A DNA stretch of 64,000 nucleotides from Batkoa obscura. Lineage: Eukaryota. Location: contig JASVEC010000028.1 of the NCBI GenBank assembly GCA_030770535.1, forward strand, positions 1 to 64,000, in the 5' to 3' direction. Position 1 is the stretch's first letter, and every line of letters begins with the position of its first letter. Shown here in pieces: positions 1 to 64,000 of the stretch. Position numbers and translations under genes: made by a program. Below the pieces are notes generated by a model. The model had not been told where the DNA came from, made no database searches, and worked only from the letters and a program-made list of their open reading frames with translations.

Positions 1-1001
1 CCTAACCCTAACCCTAACCCTAACCCTAACCCTAACCCTAACCCTAACCCTAACCCTAACCCTAACCCTAACCCTAACCCTAACCCTAACCCTAACCCTA
101 ACCCTAACCCTAACCCTAACCCTAACCCTAACCCTAACCCTAACCCTAACCCTAACCCTAACCCTAACCCTAACCCTAACCCTAACCCTAACCCTAACCC
201 TAACCCTAACCCTAACCCTAACCCTAACCCTAACCCTAACCCTAACCCTAACCCTAACCCTAACCCTAACCCTAACCCTAACCCTAACCCTAACCCTAAC
301 CCTAACCCTAACCCTAACCCTAACCCTAACCCTAACCCTAACCCTAACCCTAACCCTAACCCTAACCCTAACCCTAACCCTAACCCTAACCCTAACCCTA
401 ACCCTAACCCTAACCCTAACCCTAACCCTAACCCTAACCCTAACCCTAACCCTAACCCTAACCCTAACCCTAACCCTAACCCTAACCCTAACCCTAACCC
501 TAACCCTAACCCTAACCCTAACCCTAACCCTAACCCTAACCCTAACCCTAACCCTAACCCTAACCCTAACCCTAACCCTAACCCTAACCCTAACCCTAAC
601 CCTAACCCTAACCCTAACCCTAACCCTAACCCTAACCCTAACCCTAACCCTAACCCTAACCCTAACCCTAACCCTAACCCTAACCCTAACCCTAACCCTA
701 ACCCTAACCCTAACCCTAACCCTAACCCTAACCCTAACCCTAACCCTAACCCTAACCCTAACCCTAACCCTAACCCTAACCCTAACCCTAACCCTAACCC
801 TAACCCTAACCCTAACCCTAACCCTAACCCTAACCCTAACCCTAACCCTAACCCTAACCCTAACCCTAACCCTAACCCTAACCCTAACCCTAACCCTAAC
901 CCTAACCCTAACCCTAACCCTAACCCTAACCCTAACCCTAACCCTAACCCTAACCCTAACCCTAACCCTAACCCTAACCCTAACCCTAACCCTAACCCTA
1001 A
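1..1001. repeat. Telomere, (CCCTAA)n / (TTAGGG)n, about 167 perfect units
   Basis: Uninterrupted CCCTAA hexamers from position 1. Confidence 0.99.
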
Positions 1002-1180
1002 AAATAACCCTAACCCTAAAAATAACCCTAACCCTAACCCTAAAAATAACCCTAACCCTAAAAATAACCCTAACCCTAAAAATAACCCTAACCCTAAAAA
1101 TAACCCTAACCCTAAAAATAACCCTAACCCTAAAAATAACCCTAAAAATAACCCTAACCCTAAAAATAACCCTAAAAATA
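1002..1180. repeat. Proximal variant telomeric repeats: CCCTAA interspersed with AAATAA
   Basis: About 11 AAATAA units, mostly as CCCTAA-CCCTAA-AAATAA; ends at ...cctaaaaata|tctcttg. Confidence 0.95.
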
Positions 1181-1958
1181 TCTCTTGTGAAACATCGCTT
1201 CATCAGCTCTATGATTGATTGTCGCATAATAATCACTTAACTTGTTTACAAAACTAGTTGTAGCCTTGTAATCTATTTGACTGTGAACCATGTGGCATAA
1301 TCAATCCAGAGTTCGTTGTTTTAATTTGCTGTAAAAATTTCTAACTTCACATTGCAAAGAATATAAAAGAGATTCTTCAACATGATAACTCGATGCTTTT
1401 TAATTGAATTATTCCCTGATACCGTACCATTAACAAAGCTATTAAGTCTTTCTGACAACATCTTACGTAGATTTTACAGTAGTATTTTATATTCTATTTG
1501 TTTTACATAGTTCGTAACTTATTACGTATTATTCCTATTCATTTAAGTCCACCTTAGTTATATAAACTAAGACCGTTTGATTCAAGGCAACTTAATCAAT
1601 CAAGAACTGCTTTTAACTACTACCACTGAGTACCAACTTTCACACAAGTTAATAAATAAACAAATTTGCTAAATGTTTGTTATTAGCAGCTAAACTTTAG
1701 AATAAGAATCATTTCATAAATATAAAAAATATATGCACAAGAAAATAACAATGAAATTAAAAATTTAACTATAATTTTAAATATAATATTTAAAAGTTAA
1801 ACTAAAATTTTATAATTTATTATAAATTACAAAATTTTATTTTTAATTTTAATCTACTTGAAGCTTTTTTAAATTGAGTTTAACTTTAATGCTAAAATTA
1901 GTTATTGAGTTAATATAAATCCATTCAATAAACTTTTTTATTAAATACAAAGCAATAT

Positions 1959-53057: not shown

Positions 53058-54188
53058 ATGCTTCAAGGCCAAAATGATACCAAACCCAATGAAATGGAAA
53101 AATTCAAAGTATTCTTAAAAATGCCAATAACCAAAGATTTTGTAGACATTTTAACATTAAAGACAAAGATTGTATTAGATTCAACTAGTTCAATTAAGCG
53201 ACCAATTACTCCTCCCTTGACACCTTTATGTCCTGGAAATTCACCTTTACCAAAACTTTCTACATTTGTTCGTAACCTCATAATAAGATCAAGAGTTCAA
53301 CCTGCTACATTATTTGGTACCATGGTATACTTGGAAAGGCTAAGAAGCAAATTTCAAAATATTATTGCTAAGCATGAGTGCGCCCCACATCGCATAATGT
53401 TAGCTGCATTAATAGTGGCTGGTAAATTTTTGAATGATTCTTCACCAAAAAATAAACATTGGGCTAATTACTCACAAATTTTCCACATATGTGACATCAA
53501 CCTTATGGAAAAGCAAATGTTAGAGTACCTTCATTTCAATCTTATAGTTACTGAAGAAGAACTTATGAAACAATATAATAGCTTTTCGCACTTACCTCAT
53601 AGTCCAAGGGAATTAGCTATTATTACTTCCATCCCATTCACACCTTCAACACCAAAATCGGGTATATTTCCACCTAGTCATAAAACTCCGTTTTCTATCC
53701 ATTTCCCAGAGATTTTAGATACAAACACAAGAAAGTATCATAAAAAAGAATTATTGACACCAGTCGTATTAAGCAATATTAAGGAAGGATCAATTTTACC
53801 AACACCTGATAGTAAAGGAAATAGAAAATACAATCCTTATCCTAAAGCAATTATTACAAAGTTAAACCATCCATCAAAAGGTTCAACACTCTATCAAAGA
53901 CGTGCATCACGTAAAAAGTTAAGCAATGAGTTCACACAGCAAACTAGTTTTAAAACTAACCCAGAAATTATATTGACAGTTCCAAACACAAATATTAATA
54001 ACCCACCTCTCTCCGCACCTTTATTTAAGCAATTTCCATACCCCACTTATAATTTAAAACAAACTACCCCTAATTATATGGCAACTGGACAAAATTGCCT
54101 TACCTTGCCACCTTTGAGTTCAATTATGGAACAAAGTCTTTCATTAAATTTATCTTACTCTACTAACTTATTTCCTCGCTCTGGATAA
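53058..54188 (+). CDS. Pho85 cyclin (PCL1/2-like), intronless
   Basis: LPKLSTFVRNL, VYLERLR, HRIMLAALIVAGKFLNDSSPKNKHW, INLMEKQML. Confidence 0.9.
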   Translation: MLQGQNDTKPNEMEKFKVFLKMPITKDFVDILTLKTKIVLDSTSSIKRPITPPLTPLCPGNSPLPKLSTFVRNLIIRSRVQPATLFGTMVYLERLRSKFQNIIAKHECAPHRIMLAALIVAGKFLNDSSPKNKHWANYSQIFHICDINLMEKQMLEYLHFNLIVTEEELMKQYNSFSHLPHSPRELAIITSIPFTPSTPKSGIFPPSHKTPFSIHFPEILDTNTRKYHKKELLTPVVLSNIKEGSILPTPDSKGNRKYNPYPKAIITKLNHPSKGSTLYQRRASRKKLSNEFTQQTSFKTNPEIILTVPNTNINNPPLSAPLFKQFPYPTYNLKQTTPNYMATGQNCLTLPPLSSIMEQSLSLNLSYSTNLFPRSG

Positions 54189-55289: not shown

Positions 55290-55724
55290 TTAATAACACC
55301 ATAGTGACCAATAATTTAAGTGTAAAAAGGAGCTACTATAGCCACCTTTTCCATAATCACCATCTCTACAAATATAGTTGAAGAAAAACTCAGGGTTCTT
55401 TTCATTGATGCCTTTAGTGGTACTAATTCTAGCTGAAAGAAAATCTTGATCACGTAACCATAATATCTGTTGTAAAAATGTTTTATAAGTATTTTCACTA
55501 TGTATATCTAAAGATGCCCCTTTTCTAGCACATACACAGACATTTACTTGTCTTTTTGCGTATTGTTCAGCACCATCTAAAACAAGTATTGAAAAACAGC
55601 TATTTAAGTCTTCTGGAAAGCTCTCCATATTTTCTGGTAGATCTTCAATAGCATAACTTGAATGGGTATGAATTTCAATAGCATCCACAATTACAAAAAA
55701 TAAAATAAAGCTATAAAAATACAT
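55290..55724 (-). CDS. Small secreted Cys-containing hypothetical protein at the left edge of the viral-like block
   Basis: 144 aa intronless ORF with signal peptide MYFYSFILFFVIVDA. Confidence 0.65.
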   Translation of the reverse strand: MYFYSFILFFVIVDAIEIHTHSSYAIEDLPENMESFPEDLNSCFSILVLDGAEQYAKRQVNVCVCARKGASLDIHSENTYKTFLQQILWLRDQDFLSARISTTKGINEKNPEFFFNYICRDGDYGKGGYSSSFLHLNYWSLWCY

Positions 55725-56236: not shown

Positions 56237-56852
56237 ATGGTTATATTTACATCAAAAGATGCACTATTTTCAAGACAAGAAAAACTGTTAGTAAACTCCA
56301 TGAAAGGACTAGATATATCTGATAAGTATCTATTGGAATATAGTGTTGCAAAGTTACAAGATAAATTTGTAATTGTAAATCTTAAAGATGTTAAACAACT
56401 AAACACTGCTGATATTGTAACACTTTCGGAGATAAAAAAATCTAAAGTATCTTATGTAAAAGATCTTAAAGGGTGCTACTATTATGCATTTGAGTTTAAT
56501 GATTCAAACAATACATTATCTTTATCTCAAAATAATTTACCTGTATCAGGATGTTGGAAGAATCATATCCATACTTGTTCTACTTATGATATTGATTATA
56601 TCAGATCATTATTTAAAAAAGGTGTAAAAATTGTATACATTTATGAACCAATGGGTTATAGATGGATATCAAGTGATAAGAAATATATGGGGGTATTTTT
56701 TTTGGTTTCATTATTTTTTCTACCTTTTAAGCGCTATTTGAGTGAAAAAATTGTTAGTGAAATCCTTAAACACAAAAATACATTCCCATATTGAGTTGCT
56801 AAAGCTTATAAAAGATAAAGATATTGAAAAATTCTTATCTACAGAATTATAA
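56237..56852 (+). pseudogene. Hypothetical viral-like protein (170 aa when restored) interrupted by a MITE
   Basis: Removing 56689-56787 plus one ATAT restores ...SSDKKY-IELLKLIKDKDIEKFLSTEL*. Confidence 0.75.
56689..56787 (-). mobile_element. MITE copy 16
   Basis: Reverse orientation, TSD ATAT/ATAT. Confidence 0.93.
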
Positions 56853-56876
56853 CAGTATAAAAATTTGTTTGTATAT

Positions 56877-56975
56877 GGGGATGTATTTTTGTGTTTAAGG
56901 ATTTCACTAACAATTTTTTCACTCAAATAGCGCTTAAAAGGTAGAAAAAATAATGAAACCAAAAAAAACACCCCC
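56877..56975 (+). mobile_element. MITE copy 17
   Basis: Near-identical inverted partner of copy 16; flanks ATAT/ATAA. Confidence 0.92.
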
Positions 56976-57012
56976 ATAATATAAATACAAACGCCTTAAA
57001 TAAATAGTTCAA

Positions 57013-57255
57013 CTAGTTTATATACACAAACATTATATTGTTTCGAATAAGAATCTCATTTACTGTAAATGTATTACTGGTATTATTATAGTAAAATAAT
57101 GTATCCAAGACACCTTCCATTTTTTGAGTGTACTTAAATATTTCCACTTCTTTTCTAATATTATATTCCTCATCTTTATAAAAAGTATCGCCGTTTATTT
57201 TCCAAGACATTTGTTTTTTATTTTTGTTAAGATGGTAAGATTTTATATATTTCAT
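57013..57255 (-). CDS. Hypothetical viral-like protein (80 aa)
   Basis: Intronless ORF divergent from 57348. Confidence 0.5.
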   Translation of the reverse strand: MKYIKSYHLNKNKKQMSWKINGDTFYKDEEYNIRKEVEIFKYTQKMEGVLDTLFYYNNTSNTFTVNEILIRNNIMFVYIN

Positions 57256-57347
57256 CTATTAAAATAATTACAACTTTTTTCTCAAATCAATTATAATAAA
57301 ATAAATTATTTTTGTTATAAAAGTATTAGAGATGTTTTTTTATAATA

Positions 57348-58543
57348 ATGTCTGATATTAGATTTTCTAAGATTAAATCTGTAGCAAAAAATTATAGACT
57401 CAAGATAAAAAATAATCGTAATATTCATATAGAGTCAGATTATGATTATTGCTATCATGATGCCGAAAAATGGTATTATAAACATAAAAAATATGATTAC
57501 CAATTTATACAACCCAACCCACATTCTTTTATTGATATAGAAAACGGTTACGAATATATAAATTGTGTTGAAAAACTTAGAAAACCTTTTAAAGTGTCTA
57601 CATTAATTTTAGATTTTATCTACTTTAATGGATTTGAATTCGATTATGGTGGAAAGTTTGTCTATACTGATGTAAACATAGAACAATTATTCACAAAAGT
57701 TAATGAAACAATTTTGCTACAGAGAAGTTCTTAAGATTGATATACCCTATGTGGTTAATAGACAAAATATGCTATATTATTCCAATCCATTTGTGTTCGA
57801 TAAGTTTTATTTTAGATATAATCTTGATAATTTTACAGTTTATGAAGATGATTTAAATGAAGATGATTTAAATGAAGATGATTTAAATGAAGATGAAGAT
57901 GAAATGATTGCATTTGGAAACTGTATTTATATAGCTGAACCAGGTTGTTATTTAGCCGTTAGTTTAAATGGTTTTAATAAAAATCATCCTATTATTCCAA
58001 AGGTTTACAGGAAGAAAACACTCGCTAAACAGAAAAGAAAACAACTTTATAATCCTAGAAAGATAAACGAACTGTTAAAACCCTCTACAATTATAAAGAA
58101 ATGGAAATATATACCATATTTTAAGTTTACAAAACTTTATATAGATATTAGATGCATCACAGTGTTAAAAAATATTTTTAATATAAATATTAGTGTTGCC
58201 CAACCAACATTTTATAATATAGATAATGTTAAAGAAAGACATAATATTATTACATGTATCGATTCAAACAATATAAATATTACAAGAATTACAGATAAAC
58301 CTCTTTGGATTATATACTATAAACAATTTGATCACGTAAATATCATTACAGATATTGATCAAGCTAATGAAAATGATATATTTACCGATGAATCTCATAC
58401 AACTATTTTTATAGATTCTAAAGAAAGACCTAGTGTTTAATATAGCTGGCAAAACATATATTCTAATAAACTCTATGACTATTCATGAGATTAAATACGA
58501 AATAGCAAATATTATTGAAGGATATGCATTAATGAAATTATAA
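57348..58543 (+). pseudogene. Hypothetical viral-like protein, probably one gene broken by two frameshifts
   Basis: Overlapping ORFs 57348-57734 and 57703-58440, plus a shifted tail (...LVFNIAGKTYIL...YALMKL* ending 58543); contains (EDDLN)x3 at ~57844-57888. Confidence 0.55.
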
Positions 58544-58622
58544 AAAAAAATTTGTAAAAAAAAATTTTTTTTAACTGAATATTATTTATTTATACCAAAT
58601 TTTAAATATAATCAACTTACGT

Positions 58623-60446
58623 ATGTTATTATATCATCAAGAGTTTGCAAACAATTTTATCAGTCCAGATAACAATAACAGATCAGTATTACTTTTGTTT
58701 AGTACTAGAGCTGGTAAAAGTTTTACTACCATAAGTATATGTGATTCATTTCTAAACAGTAACTTATATGGTTATTATGAATATCCGATTATTATAGGTA
58801 AAAGTGATATAACAAATCTTAACTTTAAAAAACAAGTAGAGTTATATAACAAAAAATATAGCAGAAAAATGAAAATGAAGTATAAAATTATATTTAAAAC
58901 CGATAATTTAAAACTAAACAATGAATATAGATATATTCTTATATATGATGAAGTACATCATGTTAGAAAGATAAATAAGCTATATAGTAAAATTAAGATA
59001 CCTAAGGGTGTTATATTATTTTTAACGGCTACAGAATATATAGATAAAGTAGAAGGATTTTATGACATTATGGATTTATTACCTCAGAAAATATTCTTAA
59101 ATATACCAATAATGAATGTAATGTAAGGGTTACATATAAAGGGCAAAATGTTGGATATAAATATCCAGTTGTGTCTCTAGAAATGAGTAAAACACAAAAA
59201 CAAGATTATGACAGAATACCCAATACCAGTATAAGATGTGAAAAAGTTTACGAAACAATAATGTCAAACAGTTTGAGGACAAAAATAAAAAATAAAATTT
59301 CCAACATAACTATCGAAGATCTACAAATACATCAAATAGAACTATATACAATGATTAAAAATCCAAAAAATCTAGCATATATTTATTGTGAATATATTCA
59401 AGAAAATGGTATACAGTCTATTGTGAAGGTATTAAAGATTATTATACCAGATATCAAAATAGCCATATATACTAGAGAAACACCTCATTGTGAATCAATA
59501 GTTGAAAATTTTAATGATCCTTCAAACATAGATGGAGATATATATAATATAATTATAGGTAGTAAAATTATCAGTGAATCAATATCTTTGAAGAATGTTA
59601 AACAAGTACATATACTTACTCTACACTGGAATTATAGCTTGATAGATCAAGTTATTGGAAGAGCTATACGCATCAACTCATATGTCCCTGGATCTACTAT
59701 TGAAATATTTATATGGTAAAAAATAGTATAGACAAAATAAAGTTGAATATCTCAAGAAGTAAACATAAACAAGAAATGTAGATAGTTACAATTTTATAGA
59801 TATCAACAAACAGATAAAAGATTATAATATACATAAGAAGCTTGGTAGTATAGAATGTAATCTTAATAGTATATCTATAAGTTCATCTCAAAAATTTATA
59901 GAGGATAATATTTCAATAGATAAATCAAAACTTATAGAGATGAATCTCAGAGATAAAATATCATACATAGAACAGATTGAAGATCCAAGTGTTTATGAAT
60001 CTATAGTTTTTAAAGACGATGAGAAATTTGTACATATTTTATATTATTCTACATAACTTAATAATAATCATCATATATCTTCTAGTAATTATAAATGTAT
60101 TGGTAAAACAAGATATAGATATATCAATGAACAACCCTGGTACTGGTATCAAGGTGATGAACAACTGGTAAAAGAACATTTTGAATCTAGACTTAGAAAT
60201 CTAAAATCTGATCATTATGTTTTAATAAGTCATACAGATAGGAAAAAAGGGTATGTCTATATTAAAGACGATGGAAAAGATCTAAGAAAACGTAGCAGAG
60301 GTAAAGATATAAATACGATGTTATGGAAAGAAATAATACCTTTGGCAACTTTTTTAGATATTAAAATAGACAACAAAAGGATAGTTATAATAGAAAGACG
60401 TGTACATATATTGATAAATCAAGGAAAGCTTGTATATCATCACTAA
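58623..60446 (+). pseudogene. SF2 helicase/ATPase of the poxvirus D6/D11 (VETF small subunit / NPH-I) family, frameshifted
   Basis: HQEFANNFISP, LLLFSTRAGKS (degenerate Walker A), YDEVHH, LTAT, ISESISLKNVKQVHILTLHWNYSLIDQVIGRAIR. The frame continues through shifts near 59100, 59715 and 59770 and a TAA at ~60054 to ...LVYHH* at 60446. Confidence 0.85.
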
Positions 60447-61408
60447 TATAATCCAAATATAATACGAGATGTATTACTTTTACAATCATCTACAGAGTTA
60501 TTTATGGCAGCTTGTTTAAGTGTATTATATGAATTTTCAAAAGCCATATCTGCTATAAAACCTTTATTTAGTTTCTTATGACCACTAAAAGTTATTGGTA
60601 TAAGTTCATAACAATTCGATATAGGATTTAAGAAACACATTTTATCTACAATATATGTAATTTCTTGCAGATAGTTTTCACCAACTATATCTAACAATCC
60701 TTCTGTAATTGCTTTTTTTGCTCTTTTAATAACATATACATCATATACTTGTCTTATACAAGATGTTCTAACATTAAAGAAATATTGTGATAATTCTTCA
60801 AGATTACTTCCCAATGTTACATATTTTGTCTTAGATATTTCAGTGACTGCTCTAATACCTTTAATACCAATACAAGTCTCGTTAAGAATCTCATATATTT
60901 TTCTCGGATAACATTCCACAACAATAGCACAATCAAATTCGTGAGATAATGCAACTAATAAATCTCCAAAATAGTTTCCGAATTCCCAGAGAGATAATCT
61001 GTGTTCGTATAGTTTTTTTAACTTTATAGTATAAACCTCACTGTATCTATCCATCATAAACAAATCTAAACCTGGATATTTATCCGTTACAGATTCTACA
61101 TGAAAAAACAGATTACGATATACTATTTGTAATGGACGTATCTTATATTCTTTCAGATCTTTTTCATGATTAAATCCATATTTATCTTTTATAATACAAT
61201 TACCATCACTAGATAGTTCTATTATATCAAGACATCTTTGGAAACCATTTGTAAGATTACCTGTATTACGAAATGCATTAAGTGTGTTTTGTACTAATGG
61301 TCTCATAATTGTCTGAGCCATATCTATACCGTCATCCATTTTAATAACATTTATCTTTTCATCATCAGATAAATAATGTTCGCTATTGTAAGATTCAGAA
61401 TTAGACAT
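60443..61408 (-). CDS. DNA-directed RNA polymerase largest-subunit C-terminal part (RPB1 domain 5 / archaeal A''-like), stand-alone
   Basis: AQTIMRPLVQNTLNAFRNTG (cf. AQSIGEPxTQMTLNTFHxAG), GFQRCLDII, IKGIRAV, TLGSNL, MAFENSYNTLKQAA...DDCKSNTSRIIFG. Confidence 0.85.
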   Translation of the reverse strand: MSNSESYNSEHYLSDDEKINVIKMDDGIDMAQTIMRPLVQNTLNAFRNTGNLTNGFQRCLDIIELSSDGNCIIKDKYGFNHEKDLKEYKIRPLQIVYRNLFFHVESVTDKYPGLDLFMMDRYSEVYTIKLKKLYEHRLSLWEFGNYFGDLLVALSHEFDCAIVVECYPRKIYEILNETCIGIKGIRAVTEISKTKYVTLGSNLEELSQYFFNVRTSCIRQVYDVYVIKRAKKAITEGLLDIVGENYLQEITYIVDKMCFLNPISNCYELIPITFSGHKKLNKGFIADMAFENSYNTLKQAAINNSVDDCKSNTSRIIFGLY

Positions 61409-61443
61409 TTTTATAAAGGTATAGTTTTAATTATTTTATTGAA

Positions 61444-63327
61444 ATGAACTTACGTTTTCAAAGAATGTCTTATAAATGAAAATTTTATAATAATTATGCT
61501 ACTAATGCAGCTAATGAAGAAATAACATTTGATGGTTATAAATTTATACAAGATTTGAATGGAACTTATAACTCTATATCTGGTAATAAATATCCTAAGC
61601 AGTATATAAATTATGCATCTATTTATAACAAATTAGAAATATACAACCAATATGAGTTACAAAAATATGTAAAGATATTTTCGTTTGATATTATTTTTAT
61701 GACATGTATTATAGTTCAAGAGAATAATACCACTAGACGATATACACTTAAACAAAATTTTTCAGAATTTTTTATTATTTTAGAAGATGAGAAACCTAAT
61801 GTTATTACTGGATATAATATTTGTGGTTATGATTTTCCAAAAATAATAGAACAGATTGGTACAAACAGTTATAATGCTATAAATTTAGGATGGGAGTCAT
61901 CAGCTTTTGGAAAGAATAGGATCAAATACATAGATTTACCATTTGCCGTTGTGATAGATTTATATCTCATTATAAAACGTGATTATATTTTAGAATCTTA
62001 TTCTCTGAATGAAGTTTCAAAACATTTTCTTAAGGAGACTAAGTATGATTTGTCTTATAAACAGATGTTTAAACTATATGAACGGAATAGTTTTGATGAA
62101 ATAGAAAAATGTTGTTTACAAGATACACAATTAGTCATAAATCTTTTTAATAAGATGAATATTTGGATTGGTCTTTGTGAACTTTCTGAGTTAACATATA
62201 CACCTATTAAGGAATTATATACAAGAGATCAGACATATAGGTTAAAAAATATGTACTATTATGAGTTTATAAAAAGAAATTATGCGTTTGACTATAATGG
62301 TTCTAAAATAAATTATGATAAAAGACAATGGGCATATAAAATTTTAATAAACTCTATATACGGTGCTTTTGGAGCTAGGGGAGTTTTATATAAACTAGAT
62401 ATTGCACAACTAATTATAAGGGTTGGTAGAGAGAATCTTATAATTTCAAAACAAGTTATAGAATCATATGATGGTTTCTTAGTGTTCTATGGAGATACAG
62501 ATCCTTGTATGGTAAAATATGAATTTAGTATATATATAGTTCCTAAGATAATAGAAGATGTTTGTTCCAAAACAGAGATATTCTTGGAAATGGAAAACGA
62601 GTTCAAAACTTTTCTACTGGTATCTAAGAAAAAATATATTGCTAAAAAAGACGACAATACCATTTATAACAGAGGATTGAGTGTTCAAAGATTATTTTGT
62701 AAATTTATTAAAGAATTACTAAAACAAGTTTACATAATGATTTTAGACAATAAAGGTCCCAGAAAGTATATAAAAGAACAGATCAAACAATTATTAGCTG
62801 GAAATATTGACAACGATAGATTGATAATGAAAACAAATCTTAAAGAAGAATATAATAATGTTTGTGCTAATAGTATATTTCGAAATAATATAAAGTCTGA
62901 ATTCAATGAATCATTTGGAGCAGTTGAATATTATTACAGTTATCCTAGAGTAGAAGATTTTATCAAAGATCATAATTGTAAAGATAAAATGGGGTATTGT
63001 TATTCTTTGGAACCAGATAACATAGGCTGCATACTATACCTTAGACAGTTGAAACAGATAGATACAGTACTAAATATAATATATAAAGAAATTATAATAT
63101 AAAAATATACGAAAGCCAAAAAGAATTTGAGAGAAATAAATGTAAAAACATATATGAATGGTGAAGGATATATATTTTTAGAAACTCCAGAATATGTTAC
63201 AGATGGAATAGGTCTTATTAATGGATATATGAAAATAGATCATAAAAATATATTAATAAGAGAATGGATAAAGAATAAATATAATAAGAGTAATCCACTT
63301 CACAAATCTATGATAAAATACATTTGA
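61444..63327 (+). pseudogene. Family B DNA polymerase (RNA-primed delta/NCLDV type), internally deleted
   Basis: SFDI (ExoI, altered), ITGYNICGYDF (ExoII), SYSLNEVS, CLQDT (ExoIII), QWAYKILINSIYG, YGDTDP, KKKY. Motif A (DxxSLYPS) is absent. ATG 61444, ORF 61555-63102 and ORF 63127-63327 share one frame, with stops at 61477 and 63100. Confidence 0.88.
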
Positions 63328-63502
63328 ATACATTAAATCTAATAACAATAACTATATACTCTTTATATATATATATTATTAACAAAAAGCTATTATATAT
63401 ATAAAAATATTATGATAGTTCTTTAAAAAAAATATTTTTCTTTTTAGAATATTATAACAATACAAAAATTTTAATATTTATTGAGTTGATTATATTAGAA
63501 CT

Positions 63503-64000
63503 ATAAAAATATTATTATTGTTTGCTTTATCACCTCTAGTTAGTTGTGAAGATATTATCCTCCAACCTTCTGCTATTTCATATATTACTCCTCAGGTAAA
63601 TTCTAGATCGGCTGTTGATACAATGGATTGGTTTTATGACAAACATGCCTTTGAAACTGTTAGTAAAGCAGATCCAAAATTACCGGAAAGAAATTTATCC
63701 CGTAGATTTGATATCTATGACTTTGAAAAAGAAATTACTGATATAGAAAACAGTATTAAAAGTGCTTTCTATCCATCGATTCTAACCGATGGAATAACAT
63801 TATTAACTACTAAAACAGATAATGCTAATGACAGTGCTAATTTCGGAGCATTAGTTGGAACAATGGATTATTAGAAAGCACAAAAAGCAACGGTTTATTC
63901 TAAAGTAGATAATATTTATGAGAACACCAGAGCAATGTTTGATAAAGAATCTAATGGTAACGCAAAGTTTCAAAGAGATATTGGAAAAGGTCCTAAGTTG
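63503..64000 (+). pseudogene. Decayed secreted protein gene, running off the window
   Basis: ATA-KILLLFALSPLVSC reads as a signal peptide with a lost ATG; in-frame TAG at 63872; the frame stays open to 64000. Confidence 0.6.

What the first reader, a model, noticed from the sequence alone, without database searches (positions are those of the whole stretch)
60443..61408. Stand-alone C-terminal RNA polymerase largest-subunit gene (split, A''-like)
Seen: an uninterrupted 321 aa ORF with its own ATG and a short leader. It starts just before the trigger-loop motif, ends at the conserved C-terminal IIFG region, and has no NADFDGD. PolB starts 35 bp upstream on the other strand, so there is no room for the N-terminal part. 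Established: archaea split this subunit into A' and A'' at about this point, and yeast linear plasmids also encode the beta'-like C-terminus as a separate small protein. Inference: the virus had a naturally split RNAP. The trigger-loop His appears replaced (NAFRNTG), and it is the only hallmark gene here with no stop or frameshift.
Basis: partly seen in the sequence, partly recalled or inferred. Interest (0 to 1): 0.72.

Follow-up and report, generated by a model that had tools for sequence, protein, structure and literature searches.

The report
Split viral RNA polymerase gene fossil
This gene encodes only the back half of a giant-virus-type RNA polymerase subunit, in a decayed viral insert of what is likely a fungus; the two-piece design was likely inherited from the virus and has already been described in moss and fungal relatives.

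Summary
60443-61408 (minus strand) is an open 321-aa frame that matches archaeal Rpo1C/A'' end to end (E 2.7e-29), with no NADFDGD half in the window. The split is natural, not a local deletion: two 332-aa homologues (Conidiobolus coronatus KXN65837.1 and a JGI/Logan protein, about 60% identical) begin at the same point. It is also published. Maumus 2014 described separate RP1n/RP1c genes, with the archaeal analogy and purifying selection, in moss NCLDV-like inserts. Gong 2020 mapped POL-RP1c-helicase-RP1n in fungal 'fundsalphaviruses', and the window shows the same POL-RP1c-Helicase_C-DEXDc order. The trigger-loop Arg is private to this copy (5 of 5 homologues keep His) and comes with a 19-aa deletion. 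The neighbouring PolB has two stops and has lost motif A. An unbroken frame is expected by chance at this level of decay (P about 0.14-0.27). Verdict: a new, decaying member of a known kind. The partner gene could not be searched for, because no assembly is held. Still open: whether intact-looking relatives come from a live, capsid-less element related to yeast linear plasmids.

The parts
60443..61408 (-). RP1c: stand-alone C-terminal half of a viral RNAP largest subunit (trigger loop to C-terminal clamp base), 321 aa. Open frame, but with His47 replaced by Arg, Gly226 by Val, Glu237 by Gly, and a 19-aa in-frame deletion after residue 122.
61409..61464 (.). AT-rich spacer between the divergent RP1c and PolB starts (35 bp to the first in-frame ATG, 56 bp to the start shared with the homologue); inferred to hold both viral promoters
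61465..63327 (+). Decayed family B DNA polymerase (PF00136, PF03104). Stops at codons 5 and 546, a 76-aa in-frame deletion that removes motif A, and YGDTDS changed to YGDTDP, all against the intact 729-aa homologue P0004.
58623..60446 (+). Decayed D6/D11-like SF2 helicase (DEXDc part, then Helicase_C part) in four pieces with two frame changes and one in-frame stop; converges on RP1c with a 4-bp overlap. That the last two pieces belong to the helicase is inferred.
   Evidence: (best PDB hits vaccinia NPH-I E 3.8e-9, VETF small subunit E 2.9e-7)
57348..58440 (+). Two overlapping ORFs of unknown function (128 and 245 aa), possibly one frameshifted gene of the element. They sit where RP1n lies in published relatives but show no RPB1 similarity.
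   Evidence: run X1 lacks one base at 57624
56686..56978 (.). Host MITE-like inverted pair of a 106-nt high-copy repeat at the left side of the viral cluster
53058..54188 (+). Host cyclin gene (PF00134, PF08613), nearest recognisable host gene on the left

Best explanation
This ORF encodes the C-terminal half (RP1c) of a giant-virus-type RNA polymerase largest subunit, which the donor virus likely carried as two separate genes, and it now sits in a likely non-functional endogenous remnant of a fundsalphavirus-type element. Shown: the protein covers the trigger loop through the C-terminal region, starts with its own ATG, has close homologues that start at the same point, and lies between a broken PolB and a broken D6/D11-like helicase among host genes. 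Inferred: in the virus, RP1c assembled with a separate RP1n (NADFDGD site, bridge helix), RPB2 and RPB5 into a cytoplasmic RNAP, as archaeal A' and A'' do, with the helicase serving initiation or termination. Inferred: after integration the cluster lost RP1n from this locus and decayed; the Arg in the trigger loop and the 19-aa deletion are private damage, and the frame stayed open by chance.
For: Stand-alone homologues of 332 aa: P0002 (C. coronatus KXN65837.1, E 5e-117, 60% identity) and P0003 (308 of 332 identical to P0002). The Q.TL..F[HR] motif begins at residue 40 here, 30 in P0002/P0003, 23-26 in three distant proteins, and 1180 in a fused relative. Gene order POL, RP1c, Helicase_C, DEXDc matches several Neocallimastix rows in Gong 2020 Suppl. 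Fig. 2, where RP1n follows; a C. coronatus row shows POL-RP1c. Maumus 2014 found no fused RP1 in moss inserts and omega<1 for both halves. Decay: PolB stops and motif A loss; His47, Gly226 and Lys320 are invariant in 5 of 5 homologues but changed here. Yeast His1085 substitutions are lethal or lower activity. Contigs of run X1 cover most of the cluster at about 95-97% identity, with their own different indels in the helicase.
Against: RP1n was not found: no assembly is held and no locus was retrieved for any homologue. No tree was built with fundsalphavirus sequences, so membership rests on gene content, order and the nearest named relative. A symmetric count shows no general loss of conservation in the window protein (56 of 70 columns vs 54 and 59 for P0002 and P0003). 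X1 shows no indel in RP1c against 5 in the adjacent helicase stretch, which leans slightly towards constraint but is not significant (P about 0.14). The three distant proteins come from contigs of 1.3-3.4 kb, so their starts may be cut.
Confidence: 0.88

Rival explanations
1. The ORF is a post-integration artefact: a deletion joined a short N-terminal stub to the C-terminus of a full-length RPB1.
For: Large in-frame deletions did happen at this locus (76 aa in PolB, 19 aa in RP1c). The first 25 residues do not align well with the homologues (BLAST starts at residue 26). Fused viral RPB1 relatives exist (P0126, 1704 aa).
Against: Two homologues only 60% identical start within 10 residues of the same point. 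PolB begins directly upstream on the other strand, as POL lies next to RP1c in published relatives. No longer homologue was found (weak).
Confidence: 0.03
2. The host has kept RP1c under selection (domestication), for example as a catalytically altered subunit that poisons the RNAP of related incoming viruses; the His-to-Arg change would be part of that role.
For: It is the only hallmark gene with an open frame; no indel against X1 while the helicase stretch has 5; overall conservation is no lower than in the homologues; an annotated open copy also exists in C. coronatus.
Against: The chance of an open frame is 0.27 from neighbour break rates and 0.14 from indel rates. Structural residues are changed too (Gly226, Glu237, 19-aa deletion). 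The C. coronatus copy keeps His, so the change is not shared. Moss relatives are silent and methylated.
Confidence: 0.05
3. The donor was not a virion-forming virus but a capsid-less cytoplasmic element (plasmid-like or helper-dependent) of NCLDV descent, and its split RNAP shares ancestry with the ORF6/ORF7 polymerase of yeast virus-like elements. This is compatible with the best explanation and differs only in what the donor was.
For: [quoted passage not shown] No capsid gene was recognised among the 38 ORFs scanned here. Intact-looking RP1c and PolB homologues lie on 25-kb and 48-kb contigs.
Against: The PolB is of the delta/NCLDV type, whereas yeast elements use a protein-primed enzyme (recalled). 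Yeast RNAP groups with poxviruses, fundsalphaviruses with Pithovirus. The subunit is encoded by two ORFs in other lineages too (IIV-6 176R and 343L; two accessions each for Lausannevirus and Marseillevirus), so convergence is easy. A 6-kb remnant cannot show absence of a capsid gene.
Confidence: 0.15

Closest known systems
Fundsalphaviruses, endogenous NCLDV-like elements of early-diverging fungi (Gong, Zhang and Han 2020, PMC7017919)
   Same: PolB next to RP1c next to a D6/D11-like helicase in the same order; broken genes among host genes; C. coronatus is a listed host with a POL-RP1c locus.
   Different: RP1n, RPB2, RPB5, D5, UDG and the methyltransferase are not in this window. The paper maps RP1n and RP1c but, in the parts read, does not discuss the split. 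This copy has Arg at the trigger-loop His.
Physcomitrella patens NCLDV-like regions (Maumus et al. 2014, PMC4083422)
   Same: [quoted passage not shown]
   Different: Moss RP1c rows show about 55 or more residues before the trigger-helix motif (trimmed alignment) against 17-26 in the three Conidiobolus-type proteins; gene order differs (RP1c-RPB2-RP1n).
Archaeal Rpo1C (A'') subunit
   Same: Same region of the largest subunit, aligned end to end (TIGR02389 E 8.6e-6).
   Different: About 45-55 residues shorter at the N-terminus; far below the family cut-off (25 vs 420 bits); viral context. An independent fission is inferred.
Yeast virus-like element pGKL2 ORF6/ORF7 RNAP (Sykora et al. 2018, PMC6211774)
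   Same: [quoted passage not shown]
   Different: ORF6 fuses beta to the front of beta'; the yeast enzyme is much more reduced and groups with poxviruses; the DNA polymerase type differs (recalled).
Invertebrate iridescent virus 6 ORFs 176R and 343L (Eaton et al. 2007, PMC1783846)
   Same: RNAP largest subunit listed as two ORFs in a live NCLDV.
   Different: The split point was not checked here.

Membership tests
RNAP largest subunit, C-terminal half (RP1c / A''-like) | Homology from trigger helix and loop to the C-terminal conserved region | tested here: met
   Profile E 2.7e-29 to Rpo1C over 6-317 of 319 positions; PF04998 in 6 of 6 members at E<=1
RNAP largest subunit, C-terminal half (RP1c / A''-like) | Own start, no NADFDGD half in the same frame | tested here: met
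RNAP largest subunit, C-terminal half (RP1c / A''-like) | Trigger-loop histidine present | tested here: not met
   Arg47 in this copy; His in 5 of 5 homologues. This lowers the claim that this copy is active, not that the lineage's gene is an RP1c.
Fundsalphavirus endogenous element | PolB clusters with fundsalphaviruses near Pithovirus in a tree | not tested
   No fundsalphavirus PolB sequences were returned by any search; only P0004 is close, the other listed hits are 26-34% identical
Fundsalphavirus endogenous element | POL flanked by RP1c and a D6/D11-like helicase | tested here: met
Fundsalphavirus endogenous element | Separate RP1n, RPB2, RPB5, D5 and methyltransferase genes | tested here: inconclusive
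   None recognised in the window; the assembly is not held. Many published loci are also partial.
Fundsalphavirus endogenous element | Integrated among host genes of an early-diverging fungus, with stops and frameshifts | tested here: met
   Eukaryotic host genes ATG9, HDAC, OGG1, cyclin and others on the same window; breaks in PolB and helicase. The fungal lineage is inferred from the nearest named relative.
Yeast cytoplasmic linear plasmid (pGKL2-type VLE) | Protein-primed DNA polymerase with terminal protein | tested here: not met
   PolB matches PF00136 and PF03104 and delta/NCLDV-type proteins; the defining feature itself is recalled
Yeast cytoplasmic linear plasmid (pGKL2-type VLE) | beta fused to the front of beta' in one ORF | not testable with these tools
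   Partner genes are absent from the window; published relatives have separate RPB2 and RP1n
Archaeal Rpo1C (TIGR02389) | Score above the family cut-off | tested here: not met
   25 bits vs cut-off 420.65

The most novel reading that the evidence does not exclude
The intact-looking RP1c (P0003) and PolB (P0004) on 25-48 kb contigs come from a still-replicating, capsid-less cytoplasmic element of entomophthoralean fungi. Its compact RNA polymerase, split at the same point as yeast plasmid ORF6/ORF7, would mark a living intermediate between giant viruses and the yeast linear plasmids, and this locus would be one of its fossils.
Probability: 0.1. Interest if true: 0.72.

Novelty: new member of a known kind. 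Interest (0 to 1): 0.2.

Why it matters
As it stands, it adds one more fossil to a lineage described in 2014 and 2020. It shows a short-leader form of RP1c and points to intact-looking relatives in public data. The lineage is little studied ('fundsalphavirus' appears in 1 paper of the library searched; RP1c with RP1n in 2) and no live member was described in the papers read. The contigs behind P0003 and P0004 are therefore the useful lead: they could give a whole element and a small, naturally split RNA polymerase for reconstitution, and would test a link to yeast virus-like elements.

Tried and rejected
No whole genome is held, so the partner search was limited to the window. Locus searches found no relative: viral contigs with RP1c and PolB alignments and metagenome contigs with RP1c and P0004. 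The search for longer homologues gave 0 of 7750 candidates (weak). The AlphaFold2 model from 6 sequences was poor (pLDDT 37, pTM 0.28); its viral fold search ranked RNAP subunits first but with TM-scores of 0.25 or less, so it is not used as evidence. The protein atlas did not answer. No RNA holder was listed, which says nothing about expression. The substitution table for X1 was cut before RP1c (40 of 230 rows shown), so neither the state of codon 47 in X1 nor dN/dS could be read; 57903-59345 had no long X1 contig listed. The count of 10 of 53 conserved columns lost was rejected as a measure of decay because P0002 and P0003 are near-identical; the symmetric count shows no excess. My recollection that yeast ORF7 splits at a later point was wrong according to Sykora 2018. 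Mycodnaviridae (PMC13533422) was considered: the paper is built on capsid-bearing elements close to Algavirales and Imitervirales, and its main text has no occurrence of 'RNA polymerase', 'split' or 'Conidiobolus'. No earlier scan notes exist for this genome or sequence.

Full report
1. Observation. The frame at 60443-61408 is open on the minus strand: 321 aa from an ATG to ...SRIIFGLY*, with an in-frame stop 6 codons upstream. Pfam alone does not call it at E<=0.01. phmmer against the PDB gives archaeal Rpo1C, residues 27-319 against 71-376, E 7e-4, and NCBIfam gives subunit A'' at E 8.6e-6. A profile of six homologues matches archaeal A'' chains end to end (best E 2.7e-29), then Pol I, II and III largest subunits (E 1e-27 to 1e-21), ASFV RPB1 (4e-12) and vaccinia Rpo147 (1e-7). 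The protein runs from the trigger helix to the C-terminal conserved region. No N-terminal half is in the window: tblastn with a 1704-aa fused RPB1 hits only 60455-60982, and the one DFDGD-like string in six frames lies in the host ATG9 gene. PolB starts head to head, 35 bp away at the first in-frame ATG or 56 bp away at the start shared with its homologue.

2. Surroundings. The window is an AT-rich eukaryotic chromosome piece with host genes such as ATG9, OGG1, histone deacetylase, a POT transporter, a glycosyltransferase and a cyclin. The viral cluster spans about 57.3-63.3 kb: two unknown ORFs, a helicase in four pieces, RP1c and PolB. The helicase's C-terminal piece finds only vaccinia NPH-I and the VETF small subunit in the PDB (2 hits at E<=0.01); the N-terminal piece found none but matches PF04851. 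PolB is 65% identical to an intact 729-aa JGI/Logan protein, P0004. Against it, the window copy has stops at codons 5 and 546, lacks 76 residues including motif A, and has YGDTDP for YGDTDS. One public DNA run (X1) holds 0.26 of the sampled words. Three of its contigs cover 56976-57902, 59346-61691 and 61686-63999 with 39, 105 and 70 other letters, and 190 of the 230 counted changes are transitions. The insert is thus shared with a diverged strain or sister taxon, and the two versions of the helicase differ by their own indels. That the host is an early-diverging fungus near Conidiobolus is inferred from the nearest named relative only.

3. Is the split natural? The word-index search returned 1 protein among 624 candidates: P0002, 332 aa, 60% identical, C. 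coronatus KXN65837.1, on a 25,963-bp contig. Its cluster mate P0003 (JGI/IMG and Logan, 25,119-bp contig) is 308 of 332 identical to it. Both start with Met, 30 residues before the Q.TL..FH motif; the window protein has it at 40. The full HMMER scan gave 5 hits at E<=0.001: P0002, three short proteins (311, 509, 351 aa) with the motif at 23-26, and one fused 1704-aa RPB1 with it at 1180. The three short ones lie on 1.3-3.4 kb contigs and may be cut. A search of longer proteins found none of 7750 candidates (weak). A local deletion would not give the same start in records 40% diverged, so the split is older than this insertion (inference).

4. Is this copy special? His47 of the trigger loop is Arg here and His in 5 of 5 homologues; Gly226 and Lys320 are likewise invariant in the other five, and Glu237 is acidic in all five. 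A 19-aa stretch present in P0002 and P0003 is missing. In yeast Pol II, His1085 to Ala, Asp, Asn or Phe is lethal and Tyr or Gln lowers activity (Kaplan 2012, PMC3325174; Arg did not appear in the passages shown). With 5 breaks in about 1227 codons of PolB and helicase, 1.3 are expected in 321 codons, so P(none)=0.27. All 28 gap letters of the X1 contig over RP1c fall in the helicase stretch; with 8 indel events in 3949 neighbouring bases, P(none in 966)=0.14 (events counted from the 12 of 13 rows shown, with adjacent gaps in one repeat merged). Against a simple decay reading, the symmetric conservation count is 56 of 70 for the window protein and 54 and 59 for the homologues. Neutral decay is the simplest account; selection on the host allele is not excluded.

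5. Mechanism. In the donor, RP1c would pair with a separate RP1n carrying the metal-binding motif and bridge helix, plus RPB2 and RPB5, as archaeal A' and A'' do; the break falls between bridge helix and trigger loop (beta'a15/a16). The viral RP1c is shorter at the front than A'': 26 residues precede the aligned start here against 70 in Rpo1C. The assembly and the cytoplasmic role are inferred from known families; nothing here tests them. At this locus the enzyme cannot be completed from the window, and its replication and helicase partners are dead.

6. What is known. Maumus et al. 2014 (PMC4083422) state that two ORFs, RP1n and RP1c, encode the halves of RP1 in moss NCLDV-like regions, that no region has the fused gene, that this is analogous to archaea, that both halves have omega<1, and that the split may be a signature of the lineage. 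The regions lack capsid and packaging ATPase and are silent and methylated. Gong et al. 2020 (PMC7017919) place these within fundsalphaviruses of 14 fungal species in six phyla, including C. coronatus, and list RP1n and RP1c among shared genes. In the text of their Suppl. Fig. 2 several Neocallimastix rows read POL, RP1c, Helicase_C, DEXDc, RP1n, and one C. coronatus row reads POL, RP1c. The window reads POL, RP1c, Helicase_C, DEXDc. These are domain labels read from a PDF layout; ASFV also shows RP1n and RP1c side by side, so only rows with genes between them show separation. Whether P0002 is the locus in that row was not established. IIV-6 also lists the subunit as two ORFs. Membership in fundsalphaviruses was not tested by a tree.

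7. Verdict. New member of a known kind; interest 0.2. The bolder reading, a live capsid-less element linked to yeast virus-like elements, is not excluded (probability about 0.1). The searches run did not show that link argued for this lineage (listings only), which is a narrow check.

8. What was seen of each paper. Gong 2020: parts 1-2 of 3 of the main text, supplement parts 1-2 of 7 and two searches in it. Maumus 2014: passages, and parts 1, 3 and 4 of 4 of the RP1c alignment file. Sykora 2018: passages. Eaton 2007: one table passage. Mycodnaviridae 2026: passages. Kaplan 2012: 12 of 21 passages. All others: search listings only. Figures were not visible, so gene orientations in published maps were not checked. 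Supplements of bioRxiv preprints could not be seen and may bear on the novelty of the bolder reading. Recalled without a call: the protein-primed polymerase of yeast elements, and the names 'motif A', 'trigger loop' and 'bridge helix' as applied to these positions.

Noticed in passing
window 56686-56978 and 15 further matches across the window: A 106-nt MITE-like repeat: 17 blastn matches in 64 kb, with a 98% complementary inverted pair 81 nt apart here; very high depth in run X1. It overlaps the 3' end of ORF 56237-56794.
   Followed up: partly
window 58614-58622 and 61447-61455: The 9-mer AACTTACGT occurs only twice in the window, directly before the helicase ATG and in the RP1c/PolB spacer. 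It was picked after the fact and may be chance or a viral promoter element.
   Followed up: partly
window 55290-55724 (-) and 63494-64000 (+): Two ORFs with signal-peptide-like starts on either side of the viral cluster, with no Pfam or NCBIfam hit; the right one lacks an ATG at its apparent start and has an in-frame stop. Host genes or viral cargo.
   Followed up: no
window 57348-58440 (+), 57013-57237 (-), 56237-56794 (+): Intronless ORFs of unknown function left of the helicase, with no family hit of note; one carries a threefold EDDLN repeat that is shorter in X1.
   Followed up: no
proteins P0003 and P0004: Intact-looking RP1c and 729-aa PolB on 25-kb and 48-kb JGI/Logan contigs, candidates for an unbroken element. 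P0003 is mislabelled 'ribosomal protein L30E' by its source.
   Followed up: partly
proteins P0125, P0127, P0128: Three unrelated-looking stand-alone RP1c-like proteins of 311-509 aa from short contigs, 25-26% identical to the window protein; they may be further independent splits.
   Followed up: partly
window 1-1240: Open frames running off the left end with extreme GC skew (-0.78 in the first 2 kb), probably a simple tandem repeat such as a telomeric array.
   Followed up: no
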